Shown: positions 726 to 60,876 of the stretch, one piece after another
How positions within the stretch are numbered: the first letter of the stretch is position 1
How the letters are laid out: the number at the start of each line of letters is the position of its first letter
Source: a virus
Taxonomy: Duplodnaviria > Heunggongvirae > Uroviricota > Caudoviricetes
Virus record (IMG/VR): IMGVR_UViG_3300017565_000001
Location: 77,741-141,740 of that record
Strand: one strand, 5' to 3'
Length of the DNA stretch: 64,000 nt
The notes under the pieces: model-generated
The model's database searches: none
Told to the model about the DNA's origin: nothing
Seen by the model: the letters and a program-made list of their open reading frames with translations, nothing else
Translations under genes and position numbers: made by a program

Positions 726-2585
726 TTACAGACCGATCCACTGTTTGCGATCATCGGCCCGCTTGGGGTTGAAGATCAGATCCAAGGTCTTCTGCATGTT
801 ACCGTCATCAATAATTGGGAATAACTTGGGATTCGTCAAGCTATGCTGCCAGTCTTCCTTCGTCAAAGTGCCGAGACCCTTTGCTCGAGTGATTGACCAA
901 CCCTTATAGTCGTCGGGCTTGAAATCCAGATAGTCATCAGAATACCAATATTTCCGTTGCTTGCCCTTCTCAGCGATGATGAAAGGCGTCATGAAAATGT
1001 TGATGACAGGTGGCAACTTGGGATCAAACAGTTCAGGCCAATAAGTGTAGAAGAAATTGTTCAACAAAGCACCAATGTTCAGACCGTCTGGGTCCATGTC
1101 GTGTGCGATGTAAATCTGCGTATAACGCATCTGCGAACGATCAGCCTTCTGACCTGGTACAATACCAACCGAGTTCATGATGTCACGCAAAGCGCCATCA
1201 GCCAACACGTCCTTGATAGCCGCGCCGTGAACGTTCATGACCTTACCCTTCAGACCCAGACCACCGTGAATCTCTGGATTGCGAACGCTTGCCATACCCG
1301 AGATAGCTGACAGACCTTCAGCCAGGAACAGAATGCACTTGTCTCGCTTGGTGGCAGTGGCATCCATTAGACCAGGAACCTTCTCCCTGAGCATCTTCTT
1401 GGCATCCTTAGCTGCGTCGCTCATGTCCTTTTTCATGGTACGAGCTGCGCAACGTTCATAGATCTCGCTGATCCATTCGGGGAACTTCTTGATAATGTTC
1501 TTGAAGAAGTCGGGATCTTCCAATGCTGCCTTGATGATCTTTGCCGTCTCTTCGTTGTTCAGTCGAGTCTTGCTCTGACTGTTGAAGTTAGGCGCTTCCA
1601 TGCGAGTCACGTTGAACAACAGGAGCCCTTCCGAAATGTCGCTACGGTTCGGCGTCAGCTTACGCTTCTTGCTTTCACGTTCCAGAGCAGTGATCAAACC
1701 GCTGAAGAAGCCACGCTTGAATGCGTCCATGTGTACACCACCGTCGAATGCCGGAATGTTGTTCACCATGGAATGCTGATGTTCGCCAGACTCAAAGAAT
1801 CCAGGAACCAGCCAGAAGTCACTACGGAAAGTGCCTTCATGAATGTTGATCGTGATAGGCTTGAACCCAGGGAACAGGTTCTTTTCAACCGACTTGGCTT
1901 GAATGCGTTCACCCTGATAGTAGATCTTGATCTTGGGATTACACAAAGCCACTTCGTAAATGCGCGAACGCAGGAAGTCTTCAGGCAGAGTCAAGTCCTT
2001 AAACACCTTGGGACTCAGCTTGAACTCCACTCGAGTGCCATGCTTTGCGGTAGCCTTCTTCTTGAGAATGGCTGGAAGAGTAATCAAATCGTCCGCGCCC
2101 TCCTTGAACTCTTGCTTGAAGTATTGACCGTCACGTTCAACTTCCAAAACAAAATATTCGGAACAGAAGTTCACGACAGAAGCACCAATACCGTTCGTAC
2201 CAGCCACTTCACCACGTTCCTGGAAGTTACGGCCTGCGCGAGCATGACTCAATGCCAATGTGGCCATATAGGTTTGATGTTCTTCAGAATAGTCGATGGG
2301 AATACCACGACCATTGTCCTGAACACTGAACACCATAGTGTTGGGATCATAGGTGACATCGATACGATCACCGTGACCATGCCCGGCCACTTCATCAAGC
2401 GCGTTGTCTAGAATTTCACGGAATGCGGTAAACACTGCGGGAACCCACGTGACTTCCTGGGGTTCAGGTGTTCCATCGGGATAGCTCAAAACGGCTTGCG
2501 TATGGGGATCCCTTGACCCCAGATACATCTCAGTACGCAAACGTGCGTGTGAGTAGTCGTTGAGTTTGATAATCTTTTCAGACAT
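726..2585 (-). CDS. type II DNA topoisomerase large subunit (GyrB/T4 gp39-like; GHKL ATPase + TOPRIM)
   Basis: LDNALDE...VQDNGRGIP and GTNGIGASVVN are GHKL ATPase motifs. LAEGLSA is the TOPRIM EGDSA-type motif. 619 aa. Confidence 0.85.
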   Translation of the reverse strand: MSEKIIKLNDYSHARLRTEMYLGSRDPHTQAVLSYPDGTPEPQEVTWVPAVFTAFREILDNALDEVAGHGHGDRIDVTYDPNTMVFSVQDNGRGIPIDYSEEHQTYMATLALSHARAGRNFQERGEVAGTNGIGASVVNFCSEYFVLEVERDGQYFKQEFKEGADDLITLPAILKKKATAKHGTRVEFKLSPKVFKDLTLPEDFLRSRIYEVALCNPKIKIYYQGERIQAKSVEKNLFPGFKPITINIHEGTFRSDFWLVPGFFESGEHQHSMVNNIPAFDGGVHMDAFKRGFFSGLITALERESKKRKLTPNRSDISEGLLLFNVTRMEAPNFNSQSKTRLNNEETAKIIKAALEDPDFFKNIIKKFPEWISEIYERCAARTMKKDMSDAAKDAKKMLREKVPGLMDATATKRDKCILFLAEGLSAISGMASVRNPEIHGGLGLKGKVMNVHGAAIKDVLADGALRDIMNSVGIVPGQKADRSQMRYTQIYIAHDMDPDGLNIGALLNNFFYTYWPELFDPKLPPVINIFMTPFIIAEKGKQRKYWYSDDYLDFKPDDYKGWSITRAKGLGTLTKEDWQHSLTNPKLFPIIDDGNMQKTLDLIFNPKRADDRKQWIGL

Positions 2586-4855: not shown

Positions 4856-6109
4856 ATGTCAGAAGCGGATAAGAACCTGCATTGCTCCTTTTGTGCGAAG
4901 GACTCTCGCGAAGTCAAGAAGCTAATCCAAGGCCCAGGTGTTTATATTTGCGATGAATGTGTGGATTTGTGCCACTCGATTCTGAGCGATAGTATAGACG
5001 TATCAAAAGCCAAGGAAACAGCACCATCAGTTCAAGACGCTATCCCAAGCCCTAGTAAATTGAAGTCGTACCTTGACCAATATATCATTGGTCAAGACTA
5101 CGCGAAGATGGTTGTGAGTGTAGCTGTTCACAATCATTACAAGCGACTCGCTCATCCCGTTGTTGATGACGTTGAGCTGGAAAAGAGCAACATTTTGTTG
5201 TTCGGCCCTACAGGATCTGGTAAGACTCTGATTGCTCAATCCATTGCCAAGTATTTGGATGTTCCATTCGCAATGGCCGATGCCACTAGTTTGACTGAAG
5301 CAGGCTACGTGGGTGATGATGTCGAAAGCATTGTCACCAAACTCCTGCAAGCAGCTGGCGGTGACGTCCAGAAAGCAGAACGCGGCATCATCTATCTGGA
5401 TGAAATCGACAAGAAGCACAAGAAGGAAGGCGGAAGTAATTCCAAGGATGTTTCAGGGGAAGGCGTGCAACAAGCTCTTCTGAAGATCATTGAAGGTTCG
5501 GAAGTCATGGTTCCAACTGGTGGCAACAAAAAGAGCCCCCAGTCCGAGATGGTAAAGATCAACACCAAGAACATTTTGTTCATTGTCGGTGGCGCGTTTG
5601 TGGGTCTGGAGAAGGTAGTATCCAAGGCCATGCAAAACGGTCCCACGGTTGGTTTTGGTTCTACTGCTCGTGGTGAAAAGCCCGTAAACGAAGTTCTGCG
5701 TCACACACGTCCGGAACACCTGGTTGGTTTTGGTATTATTCCAGAATTGATTGGTCGTTTGCCCGTCCATGCTCCATTGGAAGAACTCTCTAGCGATCAA
5801 CTTGTTCGCGTGTTGACTGAACCCAAGAATGCCGTTATAAAGCAATTCGTCAAGATGTTTGAACTCTCCGGGGTTGAATTGTCCTTTGATGAAAAAGCGC
5901 TTCAGGAAGTAGCCAAGATTGCCAAAGAACGTAAAACTGGTGCTCGAGGTCTCCGTAGCGTTATCGAAAACAAGTTGGTGAAGACTCAATTTGACCTGCC
6001 TGAGTTGAAAGAACAAGGAGCAGTTAAGATTGTGATCGACGCTGACACCATCACAAGCGACAAAGAGCCACATGTCGTTTACTCTGAACAAACTGATGTG
6101 GCCAAATGA
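4856..6109 (+). CDS. clpX: ATP-dependent Clp protease ATP-binding subunit ClpX
   Basis: N-terminal C4 zinc finger (CSFCAK...CDECVDLC). Walker A LLFGPTGSGKTL. Also YVGDDVESI and IYLDEIDK. A VGF loop sits at the position of the ClpP-binding IGF loop. Confidence 0.9.
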   Translation: MSEADKNLHCSFCAKDSREVKKLIQGPGVYICDECVDLCHSILSDSIDVSKAKETAPSVQDAIPSPSKLKSYLDQYIIGQDYAKMVVSVAVHNHYKRLAHPVVDDVELEKSNILLFGPTGSGKTLIAQSIAKYLDVPFAMADATSLTEAGYVGDDVESIVTKLLQAAGGDVQKAERGIIYLDEIDKKHKKEGGSNSKDVSGEGVQQALLKIIEGSEVMVPTGGNKKSPQSEMVKINTKNILFIVGGAFVGLEKVVSKAMQNGPTVGFGSTARGEKPVNEVLRHTRPEHLVGFGIIPELIGRLPVHAPLEELSSDQLVRVLTEPKNAVIKQFVKMFELSGVELSFDEKALQEVAKIAKERKTGARGLRSVIENKLVKTQFDLPELKEQGAVKIVIDADTITSDKEPHVVYSEQTDVAK

Positions 6110-6121
6110 GGATTATTTTTC

Positions 6122-6658
6122 GTGTCAATTAAATTGGAAGTGAATGAGCGTATTCGTGCAACCCAGGTTCGTCTCATTGATGAGACTGGGGCACAGAAGG
6201 GCATTCGCAGTCTGCGCGAAGCTATTAACTACGCTCAATCACGTGATCTGGATCTCGTGAAGATTGCAGATGCCACTCCGCCAGTGTGCAAGGTCTTGGA
6301 TGCTGGCAAGTACCTATATGAACAGCAAAAGCAACAGAAGGCTCACGCCAAGAAACAACGAGCTGCTCAAGTTGAAACCAAGGAAGTTCAATTGCGTCCG
6401 GTAACGGACACGAATGATATGAAGATCAAAGCTCGCAAAGCCAGAGAGTTTCTGGCTGACGGCAATAAGGTCCGAGTAGTCATGCGCTTTCGTGGTCGAG
6501 AAGCTGCCCACAAGCAGATTGGTACGACATTGATGGAATCCTTTATGGCTGAGGTTGGGGACTCCAAGATCGAACAGGCACTCAAAGACAGTGGTCGTGA
6601 GTTGAGTTTGATCCTGGCACCTGCTCCGGCACCCAAGCCTGCACCCGTTGTAGAGTAA
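6122..6658 (+). CDS. infC: translation initiation factor IF-3 homologue
   Basis: Collinear with bacterial IF-3: VNERIRATQVRLID...GIRSLREAI...DLDLVKI...PPVCKVLDAGKYLYEQQK...KEVQLRPVTDTNDMKIKARKAREFLADGNKVRVVMRFRGREAAHKQIG...LSLILAP. Start codon is GTG. Ala/Pro-rich tail. Confidence 0.85.
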   Translation: MSIKLEVNERIRATQVRLIDETGAQKGIRSLREAINYAQSRDLDLVKIADATPPVCKVLDAGKYLYEQQKQQKAHAKKQRAAQVETKEVQLRPVTDTNDMKIKARKAREFLADGNKVRVVMRFRGREAAHKQIGTTLMESFMAEVGDSKIEQALKDSGRELSLILAPAPAPKPAPVVE

Positions 6659-6668
6659 CAACATGAAT

Positions 6669-6700
6669 GAAGGCGATACTTGACGTATCGCCTTCTTCTT
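6669..6700 (+). terminator. intrinsic terminator after the IF-3 gene
   Basis: Perfect 11-bp stem GAAGGCGATAC/GTATCGCCTTC with a 5-nt loop, followed by TTCTT. Confidence 0.65.
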
Positions 6701-6727
6701 GACTAAAAATTCAAATGAACGTAGACT
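6699..6727 (+). promoter_or_regulatory. sigma70-like promoter (TTGACT-N17-TAGACT) containing a TCAAATGAA box
   Basis: Member of the promoter family described in the findings. Sits upstream of the 6766 gene. Confidence 0.45.
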
Positions 6728-6765
6728 TGGTTTATCGTTAATCACAAACACAGGAGGGTCCGCAA

Positions 6766-7104
6766 ATGTTGCTCTGGATCGGTATGGCCATTCTTGTGTT
6801 TGCTTGTTTGTGGCTCCTCAAGGCCTATGTGGGTCTGATCATCAAACTATTCACCAACCCCATCGGCTTGATCCTGATCATCATAGCCGCTATATGGTGG
6901 TTCAATACTGGTACCCCTGCAACCCCGTCTGGTGCAACCATTGCACATGTAACAGATACGGCTTCTACATTGACCCCAAGGGGCTTTAGCGACGTAGCCA
7001 CAGAAGTGTTCTGGTTTATTGTGGCGCTCCCACTGACGATTGCCACATTCATACTCGATTGCATCATATGGATACTTGATGCAATCTTATACGTGATCTC
7101 GTAG
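6766..7104 (+). CDS. small integral membrane protein
   Basis: 112 aa with three hydrophobic helices. RBS CAGGAGGG. Confidence 0.5.
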   Translation: MLLWIGMAILVFACLWLLKAYVGLIIKLFTNPIGLILIIIAAIWWFNTGTPATPSGATIAHVTDTASTLTPRGFSDVATEVFWFIVALPLTIATFILDCIIWILDAILYVIS

Positions 7105-7131
7105 AAAAGGGGCCCAAGGCCCCTTGTTTAT
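7105..7131. terminator. bidirectional intrinsic terminator
   Basis: AAAA-GGGGCC-CAA-GGCCCC-TTGTTTATTT. Lies between convergent genes. Confidence 0.65.
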
Positions 7132-7424
7132 TTCTGGCTGTCTTGCTCGTCACATATCCGCTCAATCATCTTGTAACTTTCAAACGCCTCTTTGAGCGCT
7201 GGAAACTTATCATGTTTGACCTCGGACATCTCCAATTCAGCGACTCTGCCATATAAGTGTGTGACCATTTCATTCAAATATTTTATCTTGAAATACAATT
7301 TGTCTAACTCGTCAAATGTTGGATGGGCGTTGATCTCAACATGATCGTCACGTCGAGTTATACGTATACCTTGGCCTGCCACTAAATCGATTTCGTCCAT
7401 GTAATTCTCCTTCAATAACCACAT
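7128..7424 (-). CDS. hypothetical protein
   Basis: 98 aa ORF ending at the bidirectional terminator. Confidence 0.5.
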   Translation of the reverse strand: MWLLKENYMDEIDLVAGQGIRITRRDDHVEINAHPTFDELDKLYFKIKYLNEMVTHLYGRVAELEMSEVKHDKFPALKEAFESYKMIERICDEQDSQK

Positions 7425-7529
7425 TTTAGGTTATTGGGGACCATGTTCAAAATAATATTGCGACCCCTAGTACCAGCTATTACATTTGTGGCATAACTAG
7501 GTTGTCCATACATAAGAATAATAAGAAAC

Positions 7530-8069
7530 ATGGAAACGCAAATCACTGGCAGCATCAGAACCACAGGTTCTACCTCAAACAAGTTGAAAGTATGTTTGAA
7601 CTTTCGACCAAGTATCGCCGAACAACTAAAGCTGGCAGATCGTCGCTTCGTTCACATTTATCGTGAACCAGAAACGACCATGTATCGCTTGAAGTTTTAC
7701 GAGAAGGATGACGGTCGATGCCGTCCTGTTCAGTACAAGCGAGAAAATGGCAGCGCTCTTGTGATTGTAGATCAAGGAGTATTTGATCTTTCGGTAAACG
7801 AGCAAAAGACAGCGACGCCTATCCCCGCACAGTTGAATGAAGATGGATTGGTTCTTGACATGAATCCTGATGGGTTCCTAAATGCCGAAAATCCTTCCAA
7901 TAAAACCGTGTCAAAGTTGGAGAGCGCCGAAGACAAGATCGAAGCAGGTTTTGATCCCGGGACTTCCTGGGGTGTGGCTTACCGAGAAACGGCCGAAGAA
8001 GATGTCAAGGCGATCATTACTGAATATTTCAAGTTCAAAGCCGGGGTGTTGAATGTTGTCAATAAGTGA
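7530..8069 (+). CDS. hypothetical protein
   Basis: 179 aa ORF. Its end overlaps the start of the next gene. Confidence 0.5.
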   Translation: METQITGSIRTTGSTSNKLKVCLNFRPSIAEQLKLADRRFVHIYREPETTMYRLKFYEKDDGRCRPVQYKRENGSALVIVDQGVFDLSVNEQKTATPIPAQLNEDGLVLDMNPDGFLNAENPSNKTVSKLESAEDKIEAGFDPGTSWGVAYRETAEEDVKAIITEYFKFKAGVLNVVNK

Positions 8070-8772
8070 TGAAACCAAAAAGCTTATCAGCAAACAAGTT
8101 GCCCTGAACATTGACATTGTGACGCCATGTTTACGCATGACCGACTATTCGCTAATGCGAATGTTCAACCTCAAGAAGCAACAGTTGACGGCTCCCATTA
8201 ATGCATTTCGTAGAGCAAATGATATTTTGGCAGCTACGTTTGTTCATTACCTGGCTATCGACCAACAGAACGGCGATGACTGTATCGATGTGAATGGCAA
8301 CGCCATGGAAGTGAAATTGGCTTTCCTCAAAAGCGACGATCTGACTATCAGCAAACAGGGTAATGTGATTCGCAAAGGCAGTGAGAACGGTTTGATTCAT
8401 AATACTCAAGCCAAGTTTAGAGTCCATAACGGAACAGCCAAGGGTCATCACAACAAGGACACATCGTTCATCTTGATCTCAGAAGACCACGCTTGCTTCA
8501 TTGGTGGTTTTATCATGCGTGGCGATAAGGTTGATGAACTACTGACTAGTGGATCGCAAAAGGGTGTGAACAGAAAGATTTCATTGAGCCAATTCATCAA
8601 ACATGGTTATGAAATCAATAGTTCCGTTCCCCATATTGGTTGGGAGCGGTATCACGAATGCTTGAAGAACTTTGTTGCTGGTGCTGAGGGTATGTTGTCA
8701 GTACCACAAGCAGGTGAAGCACACAAAGCTTGGACAGAACTGGCGGATGTGAACAAGCTCCGAAAGTTGTAA
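8053..8772 (+). CDS. hypothetical protein
   Basis: 239 aa ORF. A hairpin GGCACCTTGGTGCC follows it. Confidence 0.5.
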   Translation: MLSISDETKKLISKQVALNIDIVTPCLRMTDYSLMRMFNLKKQQLTAPINAFRRANDILAATFVHYLAIDQQNGDDCIDVNGNAMEVKLAFLKSDDLTISKQGNVIRKGSENGLIHNTQAKFRVHNGTAKGHHNKDTSFILISEDHACFIGGFIMRGDKVDELLTSGSQKGVNRKISLSQFIKHGYEINSSVPHIGWERYHECLKNFVAGAEGMLSVPQAGEAHKAWTELADVNKLRKL

Positions 8773-8853
8773 AGAGAATGGCACCTTGGTGCCATTCTTG
8801 CTATATGGCATCACCATCACTATACTGATATTCTATTCTACCTGGAACTCATC

Positions 8854-9285
8854 ATGACTCACGCTATGTGGTCTTTCTTGGCAACGTCGTTGTTATTTGG
8901 TCTAATGATAGTCTTGCTCCAATCAAGACTACACCGGGTTATTCTGTTCCTGCTGTGGTTTTGGTTAGGGCTCATCACATATCCACAACCAAATGAACGA
9001 ATCCTTCCAGATGAATTCATCCTTGTTGCTGCTGTGGTGCAAGAACCACATGGCGATTACCAGGGAAGAATTTGGTTATGGGCTAGAACAAAAGAAGATC
9101 CTCTGACTCCTATTTCTTTTGATCTGCCATACGATCGAGAAGCGGCACAGGTAGTCAGGGGTTGGATTAAGAAGATTGGTGGTGGCAAGGCCGAGCTAGG
9201 AATCAATCTGAATGCTACTGAAGAATCAAAACAACAAGATCACGGGCCCCAACCATTGAAAGGGCCAAACGAACGAGGCACATAA
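8854..9285 (+). CDS. membrane protein, hypothetical
   Basis: Two N-terminal hydrophobic helices. Confidence 0.45.
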   Translation: MTHAMWSFLATSLLFGLMIVLLQSRLHRVILFLLWFWLGLITYPQPNERILPDEFILVAAVVQEPHGDYQGRIWLWARTKEDPLTPISFDLPYDREAAQVVRGWIKKIGGGKAELGINLNATEESKQQDHGPQPLKGPNERGT

Positions 9286-9286
9286 T

Positions 9287-9868
9287 ATGATCAAAATTTG
9301 CATTATTGGTAACGCTGGCTCTGGTAAGAGCACACTGGCTGGTAAGTTGTTCTCCGCACTTAAACCCAGTGGGGTTAACGTTGAACTGGTACCGGAATTC
9401 ATCCGCAATGACATCCAGATTAACGGTCCCATGCAAAGTGTGTGGGAACAGTACCGCACCCGCTTCAGCCAGAAGGAAATCGAAGATTCGCTCCCACCGT
9501 CAGTGGACTACGCAGTCATCGACTCAGGCACATTGACGCCATTCTTCTACACTTGTTTGTATTCCAACAAGGAAAACGAGCGTGAGCGTTTGGTTCTGCA
9601 GGACATGTATAAGTTCTTCCTGGACGACATTTACAAGCGCCGTTACGATTACGTATTTTTCCTGCCACGTGCGAAGACTTATGCAGCAAACCCCAACATT
9701 CTGACAGATGGAACCAGGTATCAGAGCGTTGACGAAATCGAAACCCTGGAAACGCATATGAATCTGTTCTTTGGCAATCTGCACAAGCTCAGCAATATTC
9801 ATGTGCTCAATTGTGAACTAGACGAACGTCTGGGAACTGTTTTGGAAATTATCGGCTATAAGGGCTAA
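9287..9868 (+). CDS. P-loop NTPase / nucleotide kinase-like protein
   Basis: Walker A IIGNAGSGKSTLAGKL at the N-terminus. 193 aa. Substrate unknown. Confidence 0.6.
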   Translation: MIKICIIGNAGSGKSTLAGKLFSALKPSGVNVELVPEFIRNDIQINGPMQSVWEQYRTRFSQKEIEDSLPPSVDYAVIDSGTLTPFFYTCLYSNKENERERLVLQDMYKFFLDDIYKRRYDYVFFLPRAKTYAANPNILTDGTRYQSVDEIETLETHMNLFFGNLHKLSNIHVLNCELDERLGTVLEIIGYKG

Positions 9869-9870
9869 TT

Positions 9871-10194
9871 ATGTCGTACCGTATGTTCATTGATGACGAC
9901 CGATTCCCTCCTGGGGATGAAAATGATTGGGCGATCTGCCGCAATCTGTTTGAAGTCCAACTGGTGATCGATCATGAGGGAATGCCATCATTCATCTCGT
10001 TCGACCACGACTTGGGCGCAAATCAACCGTCTGGTATGGACATCACTAAGTGGTTGGTTGAGTCTGAATTGGATGGAAAGCTTTCTTTTCCTGAGGATTT
10101 CGACTTTTACGTCCACAGCCAGAATCCCACTGGCGCTGGTAATATCGAGGGTCTACTTCGACAATATTTGCAACAACGCAAGATTGCACCTTGA
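9871..10194 (+). CDS. hypothetical protein
   Basis: 107 aa, acidic. Translationally coupled to the kinase gene. Confidence 0.45.
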   Translation: MSYRMFIDDDRFPPGDENDWAICRNLFEVQLVIDHEGMPSFISFDHDLGANQPSGMDITKWLVESELDGKLSFPEDFDFYVHSQNPTGAGNIEGLLRQYLQQRKIAP

Positions 10195-10251
10195 CTAATT
10201 GGCTTGCCAATCGTAAACTGACTTACATGCTAATCATCTCGGTAAGGACCC

Positions 10252-10548
10252 ATGACTGACACCACTCTCCAAAACCAGACCGTCACCAAGACCGCTACGA
10301 TCTCCTTGTGGAATCTGATCCTGCTGAATGACGATTTCACCCCGATCGACTTCGTGATGCAAGTGCTGATTGAACTCTGTGGCAAGACTGATCAAGAAGC
10401 ATACGCAATCACGATGGACATTCACAACACTGGGCGTGGCGTCGTTTCGACCTACACGGAAGAAATCGCCAAGCAAAAGGCCCACGACATCACGCTGATC
10501 GCCGCGCAGAACAAACATCCGCTCAAAGCGATCGCTGAAGAAGCATAA
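10252..10548 (+). CDS. clpS: ATP-dependent Clp protease adaptor ClpS
   Basis: LILLNDDFTPIDFVMQVL...HNTGRGVVSTYTEEIA...QNKHPL is collinear with the ClpS core (VILVNDDYTPMEFV...HYQGKAICGVFTAEVAE...ENEHPL). Confidence 0.85.
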   Translation: MTDTTLQNQTVTKTATISLWNLILLNDDFTPIDFVMQVLIELCGKTDQEAYAITMDIHNTGRGVVSTYTEEIAKQKAHDITLIAAQNKHPLKAIAEEA

Positions 10549-10570
10549 CAGGTAACTGGTCCTAAATACT

Positions 10571-10600
10571 GGGGAGAACAATTGTTCTCCCCATCAACTT
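10571..10600 (+). terminator. intrinsic terminator
   Basis: GGGGAGAACAATTGTTCTCCCC hairpin followed by a T-rich tract. Confidence 0.6.
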
Positions 10601-10633
10601 TTCCAGCTTACATTTTGACAACATGATTTCGCA

Positions 10634-12205
10634 ATGTTAAAGTGTAGCCACAGAATAAGCTGTCAACCAACAATAAGAACAATGATTAGACAGAAAAAAT
10701 ACGGTAATGATTGGGCAATATTTTTGCCCTCGATTTCACAAATGTACGTTTTGGCACATGCAAAGGGCTGGGGTCGTATGCCAGTTGACTTTGATCTGCT
10801 GAACTTCGTTGATGAAGCGAACGCTCATCACTTCCACTATCCATACGCCCTGTATTCGGCCGGCCATGCTTACTTGGATCCCCAAAAGAGCAATGAACGT
10901 GAACCCATGATTCAAGGCCGTGATCGTACCAAGACGATTATGGTTGGTGACTCGGGTGGGTTCCAGGCCGCAACCGGCGTCCTGGATTTTGACTGGCAGG
11001 ATCCATTGAGCCAGAAGTCGATCGATCAACGCTTGGAGTTGATGCGCTGGCTTGAGCACACGGCCGAATACAGTATGGTTCTTGATTGGCCGGCTTGGGC
11101 TATTGACACTGGACGTCTGCCTCAAACCCTTATGGTTGCAGATCCCACGACTTCGCCCATGCAAGTCACGAACGATCCGTTCAACAACTGCTTGAAGGGC
11201 ACAATCTGGAACAATGAATTCTTCATCAAGAATCGCACACCAGGAGCCACCAAGTTCCTAAACGTTCTGCAAGGTCGTTCAATCGACGAAGCAAACGTGT
11301 GGTATGACGCAGTGAATCAGTTCAGCAGTGTTGAGAAGTATGGTGATCGAGCATTCGAGGGTTGGGCTCTGGGGGGTAGCACCGGGGGCGATCCCAGCCT
11401 CACCATGCGTCTTTTGATTCGACTGCGCGACGACGGACACCTTAATGGTGATGATCGCTGGATTCACGTCCTAGGGCGTTCCAGGCTGTCAACTGCCGTG
11501 TACTTGACGTCACTGAACCAAGCACTCAAACAACACGTAAATGAGAACTGTCAGATCAGCTACGACGCATCAAGTGCGTTCCTGTACTCGGTTAATGGCA
11601 CATACGTGACTGACTTCAATGTGTCACCCAAGCATATGGGTCTAGTGAGCGCTGACATTCCAATGGGTGCTCAATACGTGGGAAGCAAGGAACCCTTCAT
11701 CTATGCAGGTGTGTCTGCTGATCGTTTGGCCGATCCCACCCACTATAAGTCACCAGCCAGCAAGTTGCTGACTATGGGTGATTTGATTCTAGCTCCTGAC
11801 GAAAAGTCCAAGAAGCCATACAGGATGGATACTGCGTCCTACTATTACTTGATGGCGCATAATGTCCAGATGCAATTGAATGCTCTGGAATATGCAAACG
11901 CAAAACTGGACGCCCCCGATGCTGTGGATCATATTCCTGCCATCTTCCTGGAATTCAAGGACTTTGTGCATCGTTTGTTCACTACCGAAACGCCCATGGA
12001 TTTGATCGAACGTGAAGCTGGTAAGTTCAAGGATTTGATTTCTGGTGAGCGTGCTGGTGTTAGCGCACTGGAAAATCAAGAACTGTTCCCCAAGACAGCT
12101 GGTCTGGAAACGATCACGACTGACAACCGCGCCAAGAAGAAGGCACAAAAGCCGCCCAAGCCCGTGGAACCCACTAGTATGTTGGACGCTTTGCTGGCCA
12201 AGTGA
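10634..12205 (+). CDS. dpdA: DpdA-like DNA transglycosylase (tRNA-guanine transglycosylase superfamily)
   Basis: GDSGGFQ catalytic-Asp motif of TGT/DpdA. GWALGGSTGGD at the TGT GG-loop position. No CxCxxC...H zinc site, as in DpdA. Start likely at one of the ATGs at 10743-10790. Basic KKKAQKPPKP tail. Confidence 0.65.
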   Translation: MLKCSHRISCQPTIRTMIRQKKYGNDWAIFLPSISQMYVLAHAKGWGRMPVDFDLLNFVDEANAHHFHYPYALYSAGHAYLDPQKSNEREPMIQGRDRTKTIMVGDSGGFQAATGVLDFDWQDPLSQKSIDQRLELMRWLEHTAEYSMVLDWPAWAIDTGRLPQTLMVADPTTSPMQVTNDPFNNCLKGTIWNNEFFIKNRTPGATKFLNVLQGRSIDEANVWYDAVNQFSSVEKYGDRAFEGWALGGSTGGDPSLTMRLLIRLRDDGHLNGDDRWIHVLGRSRLSTAVYLTSLNQALKQHVNENCQISYDASSAFLYSVNGTYVTDFNVSPKHMGLVSADIPMGAQYVGSKEPFIYAGVSADRLADPTHYKSPASKLLTMGDLILAPDEKSKKPYRMDTASYYYLMAHNVQMQLNALEYANAKLDAPDAVDHIPAIFLEFKDFVHRLFTTETPMDLIEREAGKFKDLISGERAGVSALENQELFPKTAGLETITTDNRAKKKAQKPPKPVEPTSMLDALLAK

Positions 12206-12495: not shown

Positions 12496-12903
12496 TTGAT
12501 GTATAACAACCCCGTCCCCGTAGCTGTGGGGATTGTGCCAGTTTATGGCGATGATCAAACCGAACGCTTTCTGTTTATTCGCCGAGCAGTGGCACCAATT
12601 GGTGGTGTGGCTTGTGTGAGTGGGTACGTTGATGAACACGAATCCGCAGAACAAGCAATGGCAAGGGAATTCAAGGAAGAGGTTGGTATCGAGACTCTTC
12701 CAGAAAATTGGGTTGTGTTTGCCACCCGCTGCTCGGCGCACAATCGTCTGTTGGTATTCATGAAGCTAGTCAACTACCTGGTTCATGAAGATGACCTGAA
12801 TAGCTTTGTGCCCAATACCGAGGTTTCGGAAGTTCTAGTGGGCGATCGCCATACTGAACTTGTGTTCCCTTTGCAATCGGAAATTCTCAGCAAGCTCCCG
12901 TGA
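12496..12903 (+). CDS. Nudix hydrolase
   Basis: Nudix box GYVDEHESAEQAMAREFKEEVGI (GX5EX7REUXEEXGU). Confidence 0.8.
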   Translation: MMYNNPVPVAVGIVPVYGDDQTERFLFIRRAVAPIGGVACVSGYVDEHESAEQAMAREFKEEVGIETLPENWVVFATRCSAHNRLLVFMKLVNYLVHEDDLNSFVPNTEVSEVLVGDRHTELVFPLQSEILSKLP

Positions 12904-15887: not shown

Positions 15888-16125
15888 ACTCTTGTACCTG
15901 GTCGTCACCGGGATTCCTTCTCCCGGTGACATGACACCGGCATTTTTTGACTTGCTGGACTTCATCAACAATGTTGGTACTGATCAATGTTCATTCTCCA
16001 GAATGAACAAATCGCTCTATGAGAAGCACCATGAAGCCATGATCATTTTCAAGGATCAGAACGATTATGTGCGATTCAAACTGCGATTTTCTGATGACTT
16101 TGCTATACGAACGGCCCACTGTTAA
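15880..16125 (+). CDS. small protein of the FKLRF-motif family
   Basis: C-terminal NDYVRFKLRFSDDF. Confidence 0.5.
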   Translation: MPKLLYLVVTGIPSPGDMTPAFFDLLDFINNVGTDQCSFSRMNKSLYEKHHEAMIIFKDQNDYVRFKLRFSDDFAIRTAHC

Positions 16126-37899: not shown

Positions 37900-37924
37900 A
37901 TAAACTCTAACCTGTAGGTGAAGT

Positions 37925-39211: not shown

Positions 39212-39263
39212 TTTGGTAGTGCCAGTTGTTTAGGCTGGCACACCTTAACTTCTACCTATAAAA

Positions 39264-40759: not shown

Positions 40760-40774
40760 TCAAGGAGCTTTAAC

Positions 40775-57623: not shown

Positions 57624-58034
57624 ATGTTTTGGAATCGAATGATTCGATGGTGCAGGGAAATATTGTTCAAGATCAATCCAGTTAGTGGCATCCTGCTGAC
57701 TGCCAATATCGATGAGTTGAAGCCAATAGGAAAGATTCACGCCATGAAATCAAATGTTGGCGTGATATGGCCATCTCAATATCCCAAGACCTTGCGGTCA
57801 CTGTCCAGCAACATCGTATTGGTCTACCCACCAGAAGTTGAAGAATATTTGGAATCCGTGGGCGCCGTCAAAATGGTAAACACTGATATTGGATTTTATA
57901 TCAATGGTGCTTACACGGACGACATCACCCTACTTAAGGCTCGATTGACGTTTCTGAACCAAGAACCACTCGTTCAGGGTTTGGTGTTTGCCCAAACCTA
58001 TCAAGTAGTTGATTTCAAGTTGAGGTTCATGTGA
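57624..58034 (+). CDS. array member 1 (FKLRF-family)
   Basis: Ends VVDFKLRFM. Its stop overlaps the GTG start of member 2. Confidence 0.55.
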   Translation: MFWNRMIRWCREILFKINPVSGILLTANIDELKPIGKIHAMKSNVGVIWPSQYPKTLRSLSSNIVLVYPPEVEEYLESVGAVKMVNTDIGFYINGAYTDDITLLKARLTFLNQEPLVQGLVFAQTYQVVDFKLRFM

Positions 58035-58372
58035 AATTCTTTATCGAACTATTCAAGAAGGTAAGGCATCGCATCGCTCCTCAATCATATGGCCACGTCG
58101 TCGTGATCGATCGTCGAACGCACGAACATCTTACCATGGGATGGCATCAAGCGTGCAATCCTAATGCTAAACTGCATTGGATGATTATGGCTGCCGATGT
58201 TCAAGAATTCATAGGAGCCAGAGGTGGACGGGTTCTCCCCAATAATTTGGAGGGCTTGAGTACCTTCTACGACTTCCCACCCAGTGAACACGAACAAGAC
58301 CAATATATGCTCCATCGAATTTCATTCCCTGATGAAGAATCTGTGGTGATGTTCAAATTGCGTTTCATGTAA
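58031..58372 (+). CDS. array member 2
   Basis: Ends SVVMFKLRFM. Confidence 0.55.
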   Translation: MKFFIELFKKVRHRIAPQSYGHVVVIDRRTHEHLTMGWHQACNPNAKLHWMIMAADVQEFIGARGGRVLPNNLEGLSTFYDFPPSEHEQDQYMLHRISFPDEESVVMFKLRFM

Positions 58373-58384
58373 GGAATCACATCA

Positions 58385-58738
58385 ATGTTTATGATGAAGC
58401 TACTCAATGAGTTGTTTGAACCGGAGCCACCAAAACCCATACATCGTATGATCAAATTCAATCTGGAGTCTCGAGATGATTTGGCCGACGCTTTTGAGGA
58501 AATTGAACCTGGCCCTCGTTATGTAATGGATTCGAACCAACGTGTTCATGATTTCAACATACCGAGAGTGGTGAAATTCAATGAGGAGGTTGAACGCTTC
58601 TTTATTGACAGGCAGGTCAAAAAGAAGGCTATCTATAGTATGTTCACTCGTTACACGGCAAAAGGCATGGACTTCAGACAAACTCTGTTTTTCGCTTGCG
58701 ACGAGGACATGATCGAATTCAAGCTGAGGTTCTTGTGA
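58385..58738 (+). CDS. array member 3
   Basis: Ends MIEFKLRFL. Confidence 0.55.
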   Translation: MFMMKLLNELFEPEPPKPIHRMIKFNLESRDDLADAFEEIEPGPRYVMDSNQRVHDFNIPRVVKFNEEVERFFIDRQVKKKAIYSMFTRYTAKGMDFRQTLFFACDEDMIEFKLRFL

Positions 58739-58968
58739 TTCAATGGACATTCAGTGATGCCTCGATAAACGAAGGCAAGCGATTCTTCGTTGATCCCGAA
58801 ACCTCAAACTTGGCGGAATTGTTAAAGCCGGAGATTGAAGAGTTCATGGATCAACATGGAATAGTCAAATATCCAAACAAAGAATATCAGGTCATAACAT
58901 TCGGTGCCATAACGCTTTATTTCCCATCAGAAGAAGTTTTGGTGGAGTTCAAACTTCGCTTCACATAG
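58735..58968 (+). CDS. array member 4
   Basis: GTG start in a GTGA overlap. Ends LVEFKLRFT. Confidence 0.5.
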   Translation: MIQWTFSDASINEGKRFFVDPETSNLAELLKPEIEEFMDQHGIVKYPNKEYQVITFGAITLYFPSEEVLVEFKLRFT

Positions 58969-59024
58969 CCTTTACAAATGGCAGAACTGCCAATAGAATT
59001 GGTGCATCACTTCCAGGGGAACTC

Positions 59025-59354
59025 ATGATTTTGTTTTTGGCCCGTCTTCTCAACTATTTGCGTTTCATGGTGAATCACCAGAAATATGGGCACGTGGTTG
59101 ACGTCGAAATCAACAAGTACGATTTTGTGAAAGTTGTGGCCTTCAGAATTGATTTGGGTTATGACTTCAAAGTTCAACCCACCCCAGAAATGAATGATAG
59201 GCTGCGATCGGTTGGCGCAAAAATAGGCCATGTCGAATGTGCCTATTTTTCTCTGGAGAATGAGGCTCGAGGTATGGCTCTCAAGGATCCTTGGGTGAAG
59301 TTTTATTTCCCCACGGCAGAAGCAGCCATTGTATTCAAGCTGGAATGCATGTGA
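59025..59354 (+). CDS. array member 5
   Basis: Ends AIVFKLECM. Confidence 0.55.
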   Translation: MILFLARLLNYLRFMVNHQKYGHVVDVEINKYDFVKVVAFRIDLGYDFKVQPTPEMNDRLRSVGAKIGHVECAYFSLENEARGMALKDPWVKFYFPTAEAAIVFKLECM

Positions 59355-59707
59355 TGTGGGAGAAGCTCAAAACCTTGTTGCGGCCAAGATTAGTGAAGAT
59401 CGCGCCCAAGACCTTCGGCCATCCTGTGACTTTTGATATTGGCCACCATATCGGTTTGGGTGATATCAATGGTCGATACTCCAAACAAAAATCCGATACC
59501 CAATACGTGTTTGTTCCATCCCAAGAGGTGGAAGAATTTCTGGATCAATTCGCTCATTCAGTGAATGTTTCTGATGTCGCAATCACGGATTTCATTGATA
59601 TTAATGCAATGTTGATTGGTGAATCAGTCAATTACGGCAAGGTGACAATAACTTTCTCCGATCCAGCGGTTGCTTGTATTTTCAGACTGCAATTCCTATG
59701 TCCATAA
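59354..59707 (+). CDS. array member 6
   Basis: TGATG overlap. Ends ACIFRLQFLCP. Confidence 0.5.
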   Translation: MWEKLKTLLRPRLVKIAPKTFGHPVTFDIGHHIGLGDINGRYSKQKSDTQYVFVPSQEVEEFLDQFAHSVNVSDVAITDFIDINAMLIGESVNYGKVTITFSDPAVACIFRLQFLCP

Positions 59708-60018
59708 GTTTGGAAAAATACCCCATAGAATCAATCAAAATCAAAGATACCGGAGATTGGTATGAACTCGGTATCTTGACGAAACCTATTGTGCTTGATT
59801 GGGGATCGAGGGAGCATATTGTTCATTTCAGATTTGGGGTAGCGTATGCTCTGCATCTTCCTGATGATATGATGGAGATAGTGTGCCTGAATCCCGAGCA
59901 AGTAGTATGGGTAGGGAATGAAGTTTTCCATCACCGTGAGAACTTCAATTGGCAAATTCTGTTCAAGTTTATGGTCTTTGATGCCAATCTCGCCACCCAA
60001 CTAAAACTCATGATATGA
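59698..60018 (+). CDS. array member 7
   Basis: Ends ATQLKLMI. Confidence 0.45.
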   Translation: MSISLEKYPIESIKIKDTGDWYELGILTKPIVLDWGSREHIVHFRFGVAYALHLPDDMMEIVCLNPEQVVWVGNEVFHHRENFNWQILFKFMVFDANLATQLKLMI

Positions 60019-60398
60019 ACATATTCCGCAAACTGGTTCGATCATTCAGGGTTTGGGCATTCGGTCAACGACCTGTATGGTTTGGCCACAAGGTATCACT
60101 ATGTTGGTCAGACTATTCCTGCTATTGCTTGGAGCCTATGACAGTTTCATGGCCGATCAGCGTTGGTTTGCCTGGACCCATAGCTAGAAATACCATTAGG
60201 AACTTGAAAAATATTGGTGTTGGTGGTCACAGAATGCGGACCGAAGTGAGCGAGTTCCTGATAGAGCATAATGGAGTAGTTGAGACTGTAAAGAAATTCC
60301 ACGCCCAGGAATATGGCGAGGGCCGTTCATATCACATTTTCCACATATGTTTTCTGGACTTGGAAGACTTGGTGGCATTCAAATTGGCGTTCATGTGA
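60015..60398 (+). CDS. array member 8
   Basis: ATGA overlap. Ends LVAFKLAFM. Confidence 0.55.
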   Translation: MNIFRKLVRSFRVWAFGQRPVWFGHKVSLCWSDYSCYCLEPMTVSWPISVGLPGPIARNTIRNLKNIGVGGHRMRTEVSEFLIEHNGVVETVKKFHAQEYGEGRSYHIFHICFLDLEDLVAFKLAFM

Positions 60399-60652
60399 TG
60401 AAAGCAAGCTGGATAATTCAGGATAGACGATTTATCAATAGACGTTCCGTGGGGTTCACATTTGAAATACCTGACGGATCATATGAGGAAATCATTCTCG
60501 CCACCCCCGACCCATGGAGCTACACTCTAACAAAAGCATTCAAGGAATGGGCTATTGACAAGGGACCGTATCGAGTGAGTCTAGATGGTAGCCAAACTCG
60601 TATCGTATTTGCTCGTCGAGATTCAGCCATGATGGCAAAGTTGAGGTTTTGA
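60398..60652 (+). CDS. array member 9
   Basis: TGATG overlap. Ends AMMAKLRF. Confidence 0.5.
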   Translation: MKASWIIQDRRFINRRSVGFTFEIPDGSYEEIILATPDPWSYTLTKAFKEWAIDKGPYRVSLDGSQTRIVFARRDSAMMAKLRF

Positions 60653-60876
60653 TGCAGTCTTTTGATGTGGATTACGATCACGTAAAGCATTGGTTCGTAC
60701 TATCAGATAATGGTGGCCAAGTGATACGACACCTTAAACCTGACGTTCGAACACGATTGGATGAATATGGATTGGTGTCCTATTCTACAAGGACTAAGGA
60801 CAACATCCGCACCGCTCGTTTCGTTTTTATGACGATGGAGGGTGCGGTTGCCGCTAGATTGATGGTTAGCGGATAA
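60652..60876 (+). CDS. array member 10
   Basis: TGATG overlap. Ends AVAARLMVSG. Confidence 0.45.
   Translation: MQSFDVDYDHVKHWFVLSDNGGQVIRHLKPDVRTRLDEYGLVSYSTRTKDNIRTARFVFMTMEGAVAARLMVSG

What the first reader, a model, noticed from the sequence alone, without database searches (positions are those of the whole stretch)
4856..10548. ClpX and ClpS encoded by the phage, no ClpP in the window
A full-length ClpX is present (zinc-finger N-domain, Walker A/B, VGF loop at the ClpP-docking position). A canonical ClpS N-degron adaptor is also present. Together they could redirect host ClpP/ClpAP proteolysis during infection. The conserved C-terminal tails of the FKLRF family are candidate ClpX degrons; this is inference only.
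Basis: partly seen in the sequence, partly recalled or inferred. Interest (0 to 1): 0.6.

Follow-up and report, generated by a model that had tools for sequence, protein, structure and literature searches.

The report
Jumbo-phage ClpX unfoldase and ClpS adaptor
A roughly 425-kb uncultivated jumbo phage carries intact copies of the bacterial protein-unfolding motor ClpX and the N-degron adaptor ClpS, a gene pair already described in its cultured relatives, so the finding is real but ordinary for this kind of phage.

Summary
Window 4856-6109 (+) encodes a full-length ClpX. It has a C4 zinc finger, Walker A/B, a GYVG pore loop, VGF at the IGF ClpP-docking position, an Arg finger and sensor-2. Window 10252-10548 (+) encodes a ClpS with the N-degron pocket residues intact.

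No ClpP or ClpA is encoded in the window, nor in 84 kb of the source contig around it.

The window lies on a 424,547-bp metagenomic contig. It is syntenic with Sinorhizobium phage Phosso and Agrobacterium phage Atu_ph07 in the order topoisomerase, ClpX, IF3, then ClpS.

This gene set is published for Atu_ph07 (2018), AP-J-162 (2024) and in a 2021 jumbo-phage review. Atu_ph07, Phosso, the PA5oct group and two IMG/VR contigs carry ClpX, ClpS and an authentic ClpP. So "hijacks host ClpP" is only one option. About 340 kb of this genome could not be inspected.

The idea that FKLRF tails are ClpX degrons is not supported. The motif sits in a confidently modelled terminal helix and is internal in two paralogs.

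The one distinctive feature is a clade signature in the substrate-contacting loops: RKH becomes KKS and the pore-2 loop is shorter.

Verdict: a new member of a known kind, of low to moderate interest.

The parts
4856..6109 (+). clpX: full-length AAA+ unfoldase, 417 aa. An RBS-like GAGGA lies about 10 nt upstream of the ATG.
   Evidence: NCBIfam ClpX equivalog scores 557 bits against a cutoff of 359. Pfam finds zf-C4_ClpX, AAA_2 and ClpB_D2-small. E. coli ClpX in the PDB matches at E=5e-138. The upstream sequence was read.
4883..4960 (+). ClpX N-terminal C4 zinc-binding domain; the ligands are C10, C13, C32 and C35.
   Evidence: Pfam PF06689 matches residues 9-44. All four Cys align with those of E. 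coli ClpX.
5303..5314 (+). Pore-1 loop G150-Y151-V152-G153 (GYVG).
   Evidence: Alignment to E. coli ClpX residues 152-155. GYVG is kept in 119 of the 120 nearest homologs; one has GYIG.
5528..5536 (+). K225-K226-S227 at the position of the E. coli RKH loop. This is a signature of the clade.
   Evidence: Nearly all listed homologs of 64% identity or more to the window ClpX have KK[S/G/N] here, together with a shorter Gly/Ser-rich pore-2 loop; two at 67-68% identity keep an RKN loop and SITRD.
5648..5656 (+). V265-G266-F267 at the IGF-loop position, which is the ClpP-docking tripeptide.
   Evidence: Alignment to E. coli I268-G269-F270. A hydrophobic-Gly-Phe tripeptide is kept in 118 of the 120 nearest homologs.
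6122..6658 (+). infC (IF3), 178 aa, starting 13 nt after the clpX stop. This is context, not a Clp component; it is probably in the same transcription unit.
   Evidence: NCBIfam infC equivalog scores 179 bits against a cutoff of 60. The adjacency is conserved in Phosso, Atu_ph07, L009 and L010.
7107..7125 (+). Terminator-like hairpin after ORF 6766-7104. It is the putative end of the clpX-infC unit.
   Evidence: Consensus scan only. The total number of such sites in the region is no higher than in shuffled sequence.
10252..10548 (+). clpS: N-degron adaptor, 98 aa, made of a 17-residue N-terminal extension and the core domain.
   Evidence: Pfam PF02617 scores 88 bits against a cutoff of 23. Solved ClpS structures match at E=8e-14 to 2e-11. 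PHROG 27368 also matches.
10327..10341 (+). ClpS N26-D27-D28-F29-T30, the polar rim of the N-degron pocket. H58 is encoded at 10423-10425.
   Evidence: Alignment to E. coli ClpS N34, D35, D36, T38 and H66.
10570..10594 (+). Inverted repeat GGGGAGAAC-aatt-GTTCTCCCC, 22 nt after the clpS stop. It is the putative end of the unit that starts near 7530.
   Evidence: Read directly from the sequence. Its role as a terminator is inferred.
57624..60876 (+). Tandem array of 10 small paralogs ending in ...FKLRF-x.
   Evidence: for the sequences and alignment. The AF2 model places the motif in a C-terminal helix at residues 102-112 with pLDDT 85-94.

Best explanation
These are auxiliary proteostasis genes of an uncultivated jumbo phage related to Atu_ph07 and Phosso.

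ClpX most likely assembles into a hexameric ATP-driven unfoldase. It would thread substrates through its GYVG pore and dock through its VGF loops onto a ClpP tetradecamer. That peptidase is either encoded elsewhere in the 424.5-kb phage genome, as in every characterised relative, or is the host's.

Its top-of-pore loops differ from those of bacterial ClpX: RKH is replaced by KKS and the pore-2 loop is shorter. Its substrate choice is therefore probably phage-specific.

ClpS most likely binds proteins that start with bulky hydrophobic residues. It would hand them to a ClpA-type unfoldase, either the host's or a phage copy. That would shift what ClpAP degrades during infection.

Shown here: gene identity, motif integrity, phage context, conserved synteny and absence of clpP within 84 kb. 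Inferred: hexamer formation, ClpP docking, the identity of the partner, the substrates and the biological purpose.
For: - Family membership.
- All catalytic and docking motifs are present in ClpX.
- The hydrophobic-Gly-Phe loop is kept in 118 of 120 nearest homologs and GYVG in 119 of 120. This argues for selection on ClpP docking and translocation.
- The ClpS pocket residues N, D, D, T and H are conserved. So are two of three ClpA-contact residues, E71 and K76, which correspond to E. coli E79 and K84. The N-terminal extension is 17 residues.
- Phage context: the contig is 424,547 bp. Gene order and 55-75% aa identity are shared with Phosso, L009 and L010. The neighbouring 523-aa protein has homologs in the phage collection only in jumbo phages; bacterial genomes were not searched for it.
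- Relatives carrying ClpX, ClpS and an authentic ClpP: Atu_ph07, Phosso, the PA5oct group, L011 and L013.
- The best bacterial ClpX found in GTDB genomes is 55% identical or less. Hits on huge-phage-sized contigs reach 60-97%. The gene therefore belongs to an old phage lineage and is not a recent host capture.
- Published descriptions: PMC6102473, PMC11242549, PMC7824862 and PMC12484599. The last reports that ClpP and ClpX of phage G were detected by virion proteomics.
Against: - No biochemical data exist for any phage ClpX or ClpS. A full-text search for phrases such as 'phage-encoded ClpX' returned nothing.
- No ClpP was found for this genome. Neither ClpP search listed a protein on a 424,547-bp contig. 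Both lists were cut at 120 entries and saturated with other ClpP sequences, most of them unnamed and a few labelled bacterial.
- ClpS falls below every NCBIfam ClpS equivalog cutoff; the best score is 74.7 bits against 112.
- The gatekeeper residue M40 is Ile, the pocket residue M62 is Thr and the ClpA-contact residue E82 is Lys.
- clpX and clpS appear to lie in separate transcription units, split by a minus-strand gene at 7128-7424. Nothing in the sequence ties the two together functionally.
Confidence: 0.75

Rival explanations
1. Host hijack only. The phage has no ClpP or ClpA of its own. It supplies only the specificity parts, ClpX and ClpS, which plug into host ClpP and host ClpA to redirect host proteolysis.
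For: - No clpP or clpA lies within 84 kb around the genes.
- The two closest IMG/VR relatives, L009 and L010, also lack clpP within 10 kb either side.
Several contigs of the 60-63% group do reappear.
- The VGF loop is conserved.
- PMC7824862 proposes host ClpAP as the target of phage ClpS.
Against: - About 340 kb of the genome was not seen.
- Atu_ph07, Phosso, the PA5oct group, L011 and L013 all have their own ClpP, at distances from under 10 kb to 119 kb from clpX.
- The ClpP hit lists were truncated, so absence from them is weak evidence.
Confidence: 0.35
2. ClpX acts without a peptidase, as a stand-alone unfoldase or remodeller. It might disassemble replication or transposition-type complexes or assist virion assembly. 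This was suggested because clpX sits next to topoisomerase genes.
For: - A type II topoisomerase subunit gene lies just upstream at 726-2585 (-). The arrangement is conserved in relatives.
- The suggestion appears in PMC6102473, PMC11242549 and PMC7824862.
- From prior knowledge, E. coli ClpX alone remodels MuA complexes.
Against: - The ClpP-docking hydrophobic-Gly-Phe tripeptide is retained in 118 of 120 homologs. That would not be expected if ClpP binding were dispensable.
- Relatives co-encode ClpP, some directly adjacent (L014; phage G per PMC12484599).
- Adjacency to topoisomerase is only positional evidence.
Confidence: 0.2
3. ClpS works mainly as a blocker. By occupying host ClpA N-domains it switches off ClpAP degradation of other substrates, for example phage proteins or ssrA-tagged products, and does not deliver new ones.
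For: - ClpA-contact residues E71 and K76 are conserved.
- From prior knowledge (Dougan et al. 2002, cited in PMC6102473), E. coli ClpS inhibits ClpAP action on ssrA-tagged proteins and on ClpA itself.
- Atu_ph07 ClpS has lost pocket residues (N34D, D36Q, H66E) but keeps E79 and K84. This hints that ClpA binding is the more conserved property across phages.
Against: - The window ClpS keeps the complete polar N-degron pocket and a 17-residue N-terminal extension. Those features are needed for substrate binding and delivery, not for mere blocking.
- Inhibition and delivery are not mutually exclusive.
Confidence: 0.2
4. The FKLRF C-terminal tails of the paralog array at 57624-60876 are degrons read by the phage ClpX.
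For: Ten tandem paralogs end within 0-3 residues of a conserved F-K-L-R-F-like motif. From prior knowledge, ClpX recognises some C-terminal signals.
Against: - AF2 models the motif as part of a terminal amphipathic helix (residues 102-112) with pLDDT 85-94, not as a flexible tail.
- The only columns conserved in 90% or more of the paralogs are hydrophobic: one invariant Leu and one nearly invariant Phe. The last residue varies (M, L, T, P, I, F, G).
- In two paralogs, 15880-16125 and 27144-27770, the motif is followed by 8-11 more residues.
- From prior knowledge, it does not resemble ssrA-type (-LAA) or MuA-type C-terminal signals.
Confidence: 0.05
5. The region is bacterial: a chromosome, a megaplasmid or a mis-binned contig, not a phage.
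For: - No virion structural gene lies in the window.
- ClpX, ClpS and IF3 are cellular gene families.
Against: - The contig size of 424.5 kb fits the 469-490 kb relatives.
- Gene order matches isolated phages Phosso and Atu_ph07.
- The closest homologs sit on IMG/VR viral contigs of 290-578 kb.
- No bacterial ClpX above 55% identity was found.
- Genes are short, densely packed and mostly without family, with jumbo-phage-only homologs among them.
Confidence: 0.03

Closest known systems
Agrobacterium phage Atu_ph07 ClpX (gp2) and ClpS (gp708) (PMC6102473)
   Same: The order topoisomerase, clpX, infC is shared, with clpS a few kb further on. ClpX is 56% identical. The same functional speculation is published.
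   Different: Atu_ph07 also encodes a true ClpP (gp676, 64% identical to E. coli ClpP) about 27 kb from clpX, plus annotated ClpA and ClpB. Its ClpS has a degenerate pocket (N34D, D36Q, H66E), whereas the window ClpS is canonical.
Sinorhizobium phages Phosso (PV764938) and AP-J-162 (PMC11242549)
   Same: These are the closest isolated relatives: ClpX is 61% identical, IF3 40% and ClpS 46%. The order is the same: topoisomerase (-), two small ORFs, clpX, infC, then clpS.
   Different: Phosso ClpX keeps a bacterial-like RKN loop and SITRD pore-2. Phosso has a ClpP 119 kb away. In Phosso, Hsp20 and thymidine kinase precede clpS; in the window, AAA_28 and cREC do.
IMG/VR huge-phage contigs L009 (290 kb) and L010 (524 kb)
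   Same: The block is the same: topoB(-), ClpX, IF3..., AAA_28, cREC_REC, ClpS, the 523-aa protein. ClpX is 65-67% identical. They share the KKG loop and the short pore-2 signature.
   Different: They are uncultivated and unannotated. Whether they encode ClpP is also unknown.
Pseudomonas phage PA5oct group (Paride, MIJ3 and others)
   Same: ClpX, ClpS and ClpP are all phage-encoded within about 10 kb. A homolog of the 523-aa protein is present.
   Different: ClpX is only 44-45% identical, the RKH region is unrelated, and there is no IF3 next to clpX.
E. coli ClpXP and ClpS-ClpAP
   Same: ClpX is 54% identical with every functional motif conserved. The ClpS core aligns over 80 residues with the pocket residues conserved.
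   Different: RKH is replaced by KKS and pore-2 is shorter by one residue. IGF is replaced by VGF. In ClpS, M40 is Ile, M62 is Thr, E82 is Lys, and the N-terminal extension is 17 residues against 25. There is no clpP-clpX operon and no clpS-clpA operon.
Bacillus phage G gp257-gp258 (ClpP-ClpX) (PMC12484599)
   Same: ClpX is phage-encoded, 49% identical over 92% of the query. Both proteins were detected in virion proteomics.
   Different: It keeps the adjacent clpP-clpX pair as in bacteria. No ClpS hit was found.

Membership tests
ClpX (AAA+ unfoldase of ClpXP) | Whole-protein score above the curated equivalog cutoff | tested here: met
   NF003745 scores 557.3 bits against 359. TIGR00382 scores 537 bits against 370.75.
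ClpX (AAA+ unfoldase of ClpXP) | N-terminal C4 zinc-binding domain | tested here: met
   PF06689 scores 64.5 bits over residues 9-44. C10, C13, C32 and C35 align with the E. coli ligands.
ClpX (AAA+ unfoldase of ClpXP) | Walker A, Walker B, Arg finger and sensor-2 | tested here: met
   GPTGSGKT at 117-124, DE at 182-183, R301, and R364 within GARGLRS.
ClpX (AAA+ unfoldase of ClpXP) | Pore-1 GYVG loop | tested here: met
   G150-Y151-V152-G153.
ClpX (AAA+ unfoldase of ClpXP) | IGF-type ClpP-docking loop (hydrophobic-Gly-Phe) | tested here: met
   V265-G266-F267 aligns with E. coli I268-G269-F270. Homologs have V, L, I or M at the first position.
ClpX (AAA+ unfoldase of ClpXP) | RKH loop. This defines the E. 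coli-type enzyme, not the whole family. | tested here: not met
   KKS stands at the RKH position, and nearly all listed homologs of 64% identity or more share KK[S/G/N] (two keep RKN).
ClpX (AAA+ unfoldase of ClpXP) | Hexamer formation, ATPase activity and physical docking on ClpP | not testable with these tools
   No multimer modelling or biochemistry was available.
ClpS (N-degron adaptor of ClpAP/ClpCP) | ClpS domain above the Pfam gathering score | tested here: met
   PF02617 scores 88.3 bits against 23, covering profile positions 4-79 of 80.
ClpS (N-degron adaptor of ClpAP/ClpCP) | Score above an NCBIfam ClpS equivalog cutoff | tested here: not met
   The best score is NF000672 at 74.7 bits against 112. 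All eight ClpS models fall below cutoff. The protein is a divergent ClpS.
ClpS (N-degron adaptor of ClpAP/ClpCP) | Polar N-degron pocket residues (E. coli N34, D35, D36, T38, H66) | tested here: met
   N26, D27, D28, T30 and H58.
ClpS (N-degron adaptor of ClpAP/ClpCP) | Hydrophobic pocket and gatekeeper residues (E. coli L32, M40, V43, M62, V65, L99) | tested here: inconclusive
   L, V, I and L are kept at positions 32, 43, 65 and 99. M40 is Ile and M62 is Thr. The effect on specificity is unknown.
ClpS (N-degron adaptor of ClpAP/ClpCP) | ClpA N-domain contact residues (E. coli E79, E82, K84) and an N-terminal extension | tested here: inconclusive
   E71 and K76 are conserved; E82 is Lys. The extension is 17 residues. 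Binding itself was not testable.
Complete phage-encoded Clp protease (ClpX/ClpA plus ClpP) | A ClpP (PF00574) gene in the same genome | tested here: inconclusive
   ClpP is absent from the window and from contig positions 26,208-109,945. ClpP hit lists showed no protein on a 424,547-bp contig but were truncated.

The most novel reading that the evidence does not exclude
The window's ClpX subclade (64% identity or more; KK[S/G/N] in place of RKH; short Gly/Ser-rich pore-2 loop; always followed by IF3) may belong to huge phages with no ClpP or ClpA of their own. These phages would then supply only the substrate-selecting parts: an unfoldase with re-tuned entry loops and an N-degron adaptor. Those parts would plug into the host's ClpP and ClpA. 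This would be a bacterial-virus counterpart of eukaryotic viruses that bring their own ubiquitin-ligase adaptors.
Probability: 0.3. Interest if true: 0.55.

Novelty: new member of a known kind. Interest (0 to 1): 0.25.

Why it matters
Phage-encoded ClpX and ClpS are catalogued, but as far as the searchable literature shows they have never been tested biochemically.

A canonical, motif-complete pair from an abundant uncultivated huge-phage clade is a reasonable candidate for two experiments:
- whether phages re-programme bacterial regulated proteolysis;
- whether the altered RKH and pore-2 loops change what ClpX selects.

As a genomic observation it adds one more member, plus a clade-level loop signature, to something already described for Atu_ph07, AP-J-162, Phosso, PA5oct and phage G. 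It does not change current understanding.

Tried and rejected
1. DNA-level search of the region against GenBank phages gave no match. Relatives are visible only at protein level.

2. I looked for this genome's ClpP by searching the 5.8-billion-protein set with Phosso ClpP and with the divergent L011 ClpP, then scanning for a hit on a 424,547-bp contig. None appeared in either top-120 list. This is inconclusive because both lists are saturated with other ClpP sequences (mostly unnamed, a few labelled bacterial) at 62-77% identity.

3. I scanned IMG/VR with Phosso ClpP to intersect contig names with the ClpX-bearing contigs. More than 600 hits were cut to 80 and there was no overlap. This is also inconclusive.

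4. Walking 10 kb beyond each window end found no Clp genes.

5. FKLRF family: there was no PHROG match and no significant BFVD fold match. Its function stays unknown and the degron reading is rejected.

6. The 523-aa neighbour of clpS contains GDSGGFQ, which recalls tRNA-guanine transglycosylase/DpdA enzymes. It has no Pfam, NCBIfam, PHROG or PDB sequence match, so that idea is unverified.

7. No tRNA genes were found in the window.

8. Promoter and terminator consensus scans are barely above shuffled expectation. The operon boundaries are suggestions only.

9. A literature search for experimental work on phage ClpX, ClpS or ClpP returned nothing.

Full report
**1. What is at the coordinates**

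The span 4856-10548 runs from the start of one gene to the stop of another, both on the plus strand.

The first ORF, 4856-6109 (417 aa), is ClpX by every test.
- It scores 557 bits against NCBIfam NF003745 (cutoff 359) and 537 bits against TIGR00382.
- Pfam finds the ClpX zinc finger, AAA_2 and the ClpB_D2-small domain.
- It matches full-length E. coli ClpX (PDB 8e91) at E=5e-138 over residues 5-411.

The last ORF, 10252-10548 (98 aa), is a ClpS.
- It scores 88 bits against Pfam PF02617 (cutoff 23).
- It matches PHROG 27368.
- It matches solved ClpS structures from E=8e-14 (3dnj, best hit) to 2e-11 (E. coli ClpS).
- It falls below all eight NCBIfam ClpS equivalog cutoffs, with a best score of 74.7 against 112. 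It is therefore a divergent member of the family.

**2.

GYVG test. In alignments with E. coli ClpX and 15 other homologs, the window protein has:
- zinc ligands C10, C13, C32 and C35;
- Walker A GPTGSGKT at 117-124;
- pore-1 G150-Y151-V152-G153. The sequence is AGYVGDD, so GYVG is intact;
- Walker B D182-E183;
- V265-G266-F267 exactly at the IGF ClpP-docking tripeptide;
- Arg finger R301;
- sensor-2 R364.

N-degron pocket test. In a ClpS alignment, the E. coli pocket residues N34, D35, D36, T38 and H66 correspond to N26, D27, D28, T30 and H58.
- The hydrophobic positions L32, V43, V65 and L99 are kept as L, V, I and L.
- The gatekeeper M40 is Ile and M62 is Thr.
- Of the ClpA-N-domain contacts E79, E82 and K84 (assignment from prior knowledge of the ClpS-ClpA N-domain structures), E71 and K76 are kept and E82 is Lys.
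- There are 17 residues ahead of the core.

Neither test refutes the observation.

**3. No ClpP in the window**

tblastn with E. coli ClpP, E. coli ClpA and the authentic ClpP of Atu_ph07 finds nothing in the 64 kb. The only exception is the expected weak ClpA-to-ClpX AAA+ similarity.

The window's proteins occur on ENA assembly ERZ27256359, contig k141_834733, which is 424,547 bp. The window corresponds to about 36,035-100,034 of it. Precomputed Pfam hits on the called genes from 26,208 to 109,945 include no CLP_protease, no Clp_N, no Lon and no Leu/Phe-transferase.

**4. Phage context**

There is no DNA-level match in GenBank phages. At protein level the best ClpX matches are:
- Sinorhizobium phage Phosso (61%, 469 kb);
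- Agrobacterium phage Atu_ph07 (56%, 490 kb);
- then Lak megaphages, Bacillus phage G and the PA5oct group.

Phosso shares the local order: type II topoisomerase subunit on the minus strand, two small ORFs, clpX, infC, and clpS further on. It also shares a glutathionylspermidine synthase.

Two IMG/VR contigs, L009 (290 kb) and L010 (524 kb), share the fuller block: topoB(-), ClpX, IF3..., AAA_28, cREC_REC, ClpS, and a 523-aa protein. Within the phage collection that 523-aa protein has homologs only in jumbo phages; bacterial genomes were not searched for it.

The closest ClpX homologs in the large protein set (60-97% identity) sit on contigs of up to 300-580 kb. The best bacterial ClpX found in GTDB species genomes is 55% identical or less.

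The window is therefore part of a jumbo-phage genome. Its clpX belongs to an old phage lineage and is not a recent host capture.

**5. What is already known**

- Attai et al. 2018 (PMC6102473) list Atu_ph07 ClpX (gp2), ClpS (gp708), ClpP (gp676), ClpA (gp292) and ClpB (gp492). They note that clpX lies beside topoisomerase genes.
- The AP-J-162 paper (PMC11242549) describes clpX directly adjacent to IF-3 and topoisomerase.
- Iyer et al. [quoted passage not shown]
- Phage G has adjacent ClpP-ClpX, and both were detected in virions (PMC12484599).
- I found no experimental work on any phage ClpX or ClpS in the searchable library.

**6. Does the phage rely on host ClpP?**

The relatives with both ClpX and ClpS that could be inspected also have an authentic ClpP:
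- Atu_ph07: 64% identical to E. coli ClpP, about 27 kb from clpX.
- Phosso: about 119 kb away.
- PA5oct-like phages: within about 10 kb.
- IMG/VR L011 (578 kb) and L013 (328 kb): within 10 kb.

For this genome and its closest clade I could not decide.
- Two protein searches, with Phosso ClpP and with the divergent L011 ClpP, listed no protein on a 424,547-bp contig.
- Neither listed a protein on any of the large contigs carrying ClpX at 64% identity or more.
- Both lists are cut at 120 entries and are full of other ClpP sequences, most unnamed and a few labelled bacterial, so this is only weak evidence for absence.

I put roughly 55-60% on a phage-encoded ClpP elsewhere in the genome and 35% on pure host dependence.

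**7. Mechanism**

Among the 120 nearest ClpX homologs, GYVG is kept in 119 and a hydrophobic-Gly-Phe tripeptide in 118. This argues that translocation and ClpP docking are under selection. It also argues against a purely peptidase-independent chaperone role.

Nearly all listed homologs of 64% identity or more (two at 67-68% keep RKN and SITRD) share KK[S/G/N] where E. coli has RKH. They also share a pore-2 loop that is one residue shorter and rich in Gly/Ser. From prior knowledge of E. coli ClpX, these loops line the pore entrance and influence substrate choice. The phage enzyme probably selects a different substrate set from the host enzyme. That would be a reason for the phage to carry its own copy. 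This step is inference.

ClpS, with its intact polar pocket, extension and two of three ClpA contacts, most likely binds N-degron substrates and engages a ClpA-type N-domain. A blocking role on host ClpA is a compatible alternative. It is hinted at by Atu_ph07 ClpS, which has lost pocket residues but keeps the contact residues.

clpX-infC and the unit ending in clpS look like separate transcription units:
- a minus-strand gene lies at 7128-7424;
- there are hairpins at 7107-7125 and 10570-10594;
- there is a TTGACA-17-TAAAGT site at 10615-10643.

These consensus matches are not above shuffled expectation.

**8. The FKLRF tails**

The family is real. There are ten tandem paralogs from 57624 to 60876 and two distant copies. 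Four observations argue against a degron.
- The only columns conserved in 90% or more of the paralogs are one Leu and one Phe, both hydrophobic. The terminal residue varies.
- In two paralogs the motif is followed by 8-11 more residues.
- An AlphaFold2 model built on the paralog alignment has mean pLDDT 75. It places the motif in a C-terminal amphipathic helix (residues 102-112) after a strand (94-99), with pLDDT 85-94.
- That is a folded element and not a flexible tail.

No PHROG and no viral fold match was found. The degron idea is not supported.

**9. Verdict**

The finding is a new member of a known kind: an Atu_ph07/Phosso-like jumbo-phage proteostasis and translation gene set. Its only distinctive point is a clade-specific change in the ClpX substrate-contacting loops. 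Interest is low to moderate.

Noticed in passing
window 6122-6658 (+): A full-length translation initiation factor IF3 (infC equivalog, 179 bits) starts 13 nt after the clpX stop, with a GTG start. The clpX-infC adjacency is conserved in Phosso, Atu_ph07 and IMG/VR contigs L009 and L010. It has been noted for AP-J-162.
   Followed up: partly
window 9287-12205 (+): A conserved block surrounds clpS: an AAA_28 P-loop NTPase (9287-9868), a cREC_REC 'cyclic-phosphate processing receiver' domain protein (9871-10194), clpS, then a 523-aa protein (10634-12205). The last contains GDSGGFQ and has no Pfam, NCBIfam, PHROG or PDB match. In the phage collection its homologs occur only in jumbo phages (PA5oct group, a Vibrio jumbo phage, Phosso). 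L009 and L010 have the same order.
   Followed up: partly
window 57624-60876 (+); also 15880-16125 and 27144-27770: A tandem array of ten small paralogs (74-136 aa). They share an N-terminal ..P..GH.V segment, a central EVEEF segment and a C-terminal F....E..V.FKLRF element. The AF2 model has mean pLDDT 75. No PHROG match or viral fold match was found, so the function is unknown.
   Followed up: partly
window 5420-5540 (ClpX residues ~186-228): A clade signature in ClpX: the pore-2 loop is one residue shorter and Gly/Ser-rich (KKHKKEGGSNSKD), and RKH is replaced by KKS. Nearly all listed homologs of 64% identity or more share this; two keep RKN/SITRD. Phosso and the bacterial ClpX sequences examined do not.
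   Followed up: yes
window 12499-12903, 22353-23567 (-), 26403-26891, 32723-33754: A scattered set of RNA-repair-like genes: a NUDIX hydrolase, a CCA-adding/poly(A) polymerase family enzyme, a KTI12/AAA_33 kinase-like protein and an RNA ligase (PHROG 24030, E=8e-140). Together with the cREC domain protein, this suggests a tRNA/RNA repair capacity.
   Followed up: no
window 36607-41167 (+): A run of cellular-type genes: a Na+/H+ exchanger, a saccharopine dehydrogenase-like enzyme, a glutathionylspermidine synthase (503 bits; a homolog is also present in Phosso) and a DUF350 membrane protein. This may be a polyamine/thiol metabolism module.
   Followed up: no
window 28207-28803 (+), 31565-32446 (+), 34015-35365 (-), 28965-29657 and 35478-36167 (+): A GGDEF-domain protein (possible diguanylate cyclase), a Band_7/SPFH protein, two adjacent Laminin_G_3 proteins and two Hydrolase_2 (SleB-like cell-wall hydrolase) genes. 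All are known only from precomputed Pfam hits on the contig's gene calls.
   Followed up: no
source contig upstream of the window (locus L112 16401-16964; contig ~29.7-30.3 kb): A PTPS/QueD-like gene lies about 6 kb upstream of the window start. PA5oct-like phages also have QueD-like genes and GTP cyclohydrolase right next to their clpX. This hints at a recurring link between 7-deazaguanine genes and the Clp region.
   Followed up: no
locus L003 41272-41574 (Atu_ph07 ClpS): The ClpS of Atu_ph07 has substitutions at three polar pocket positions (N34D, D36Q, H66E) but keeps the ClpA-contact residues E79 and K84. Not all phage ClpS proteins are likely to bind N-degrons.
   Followed up: partly
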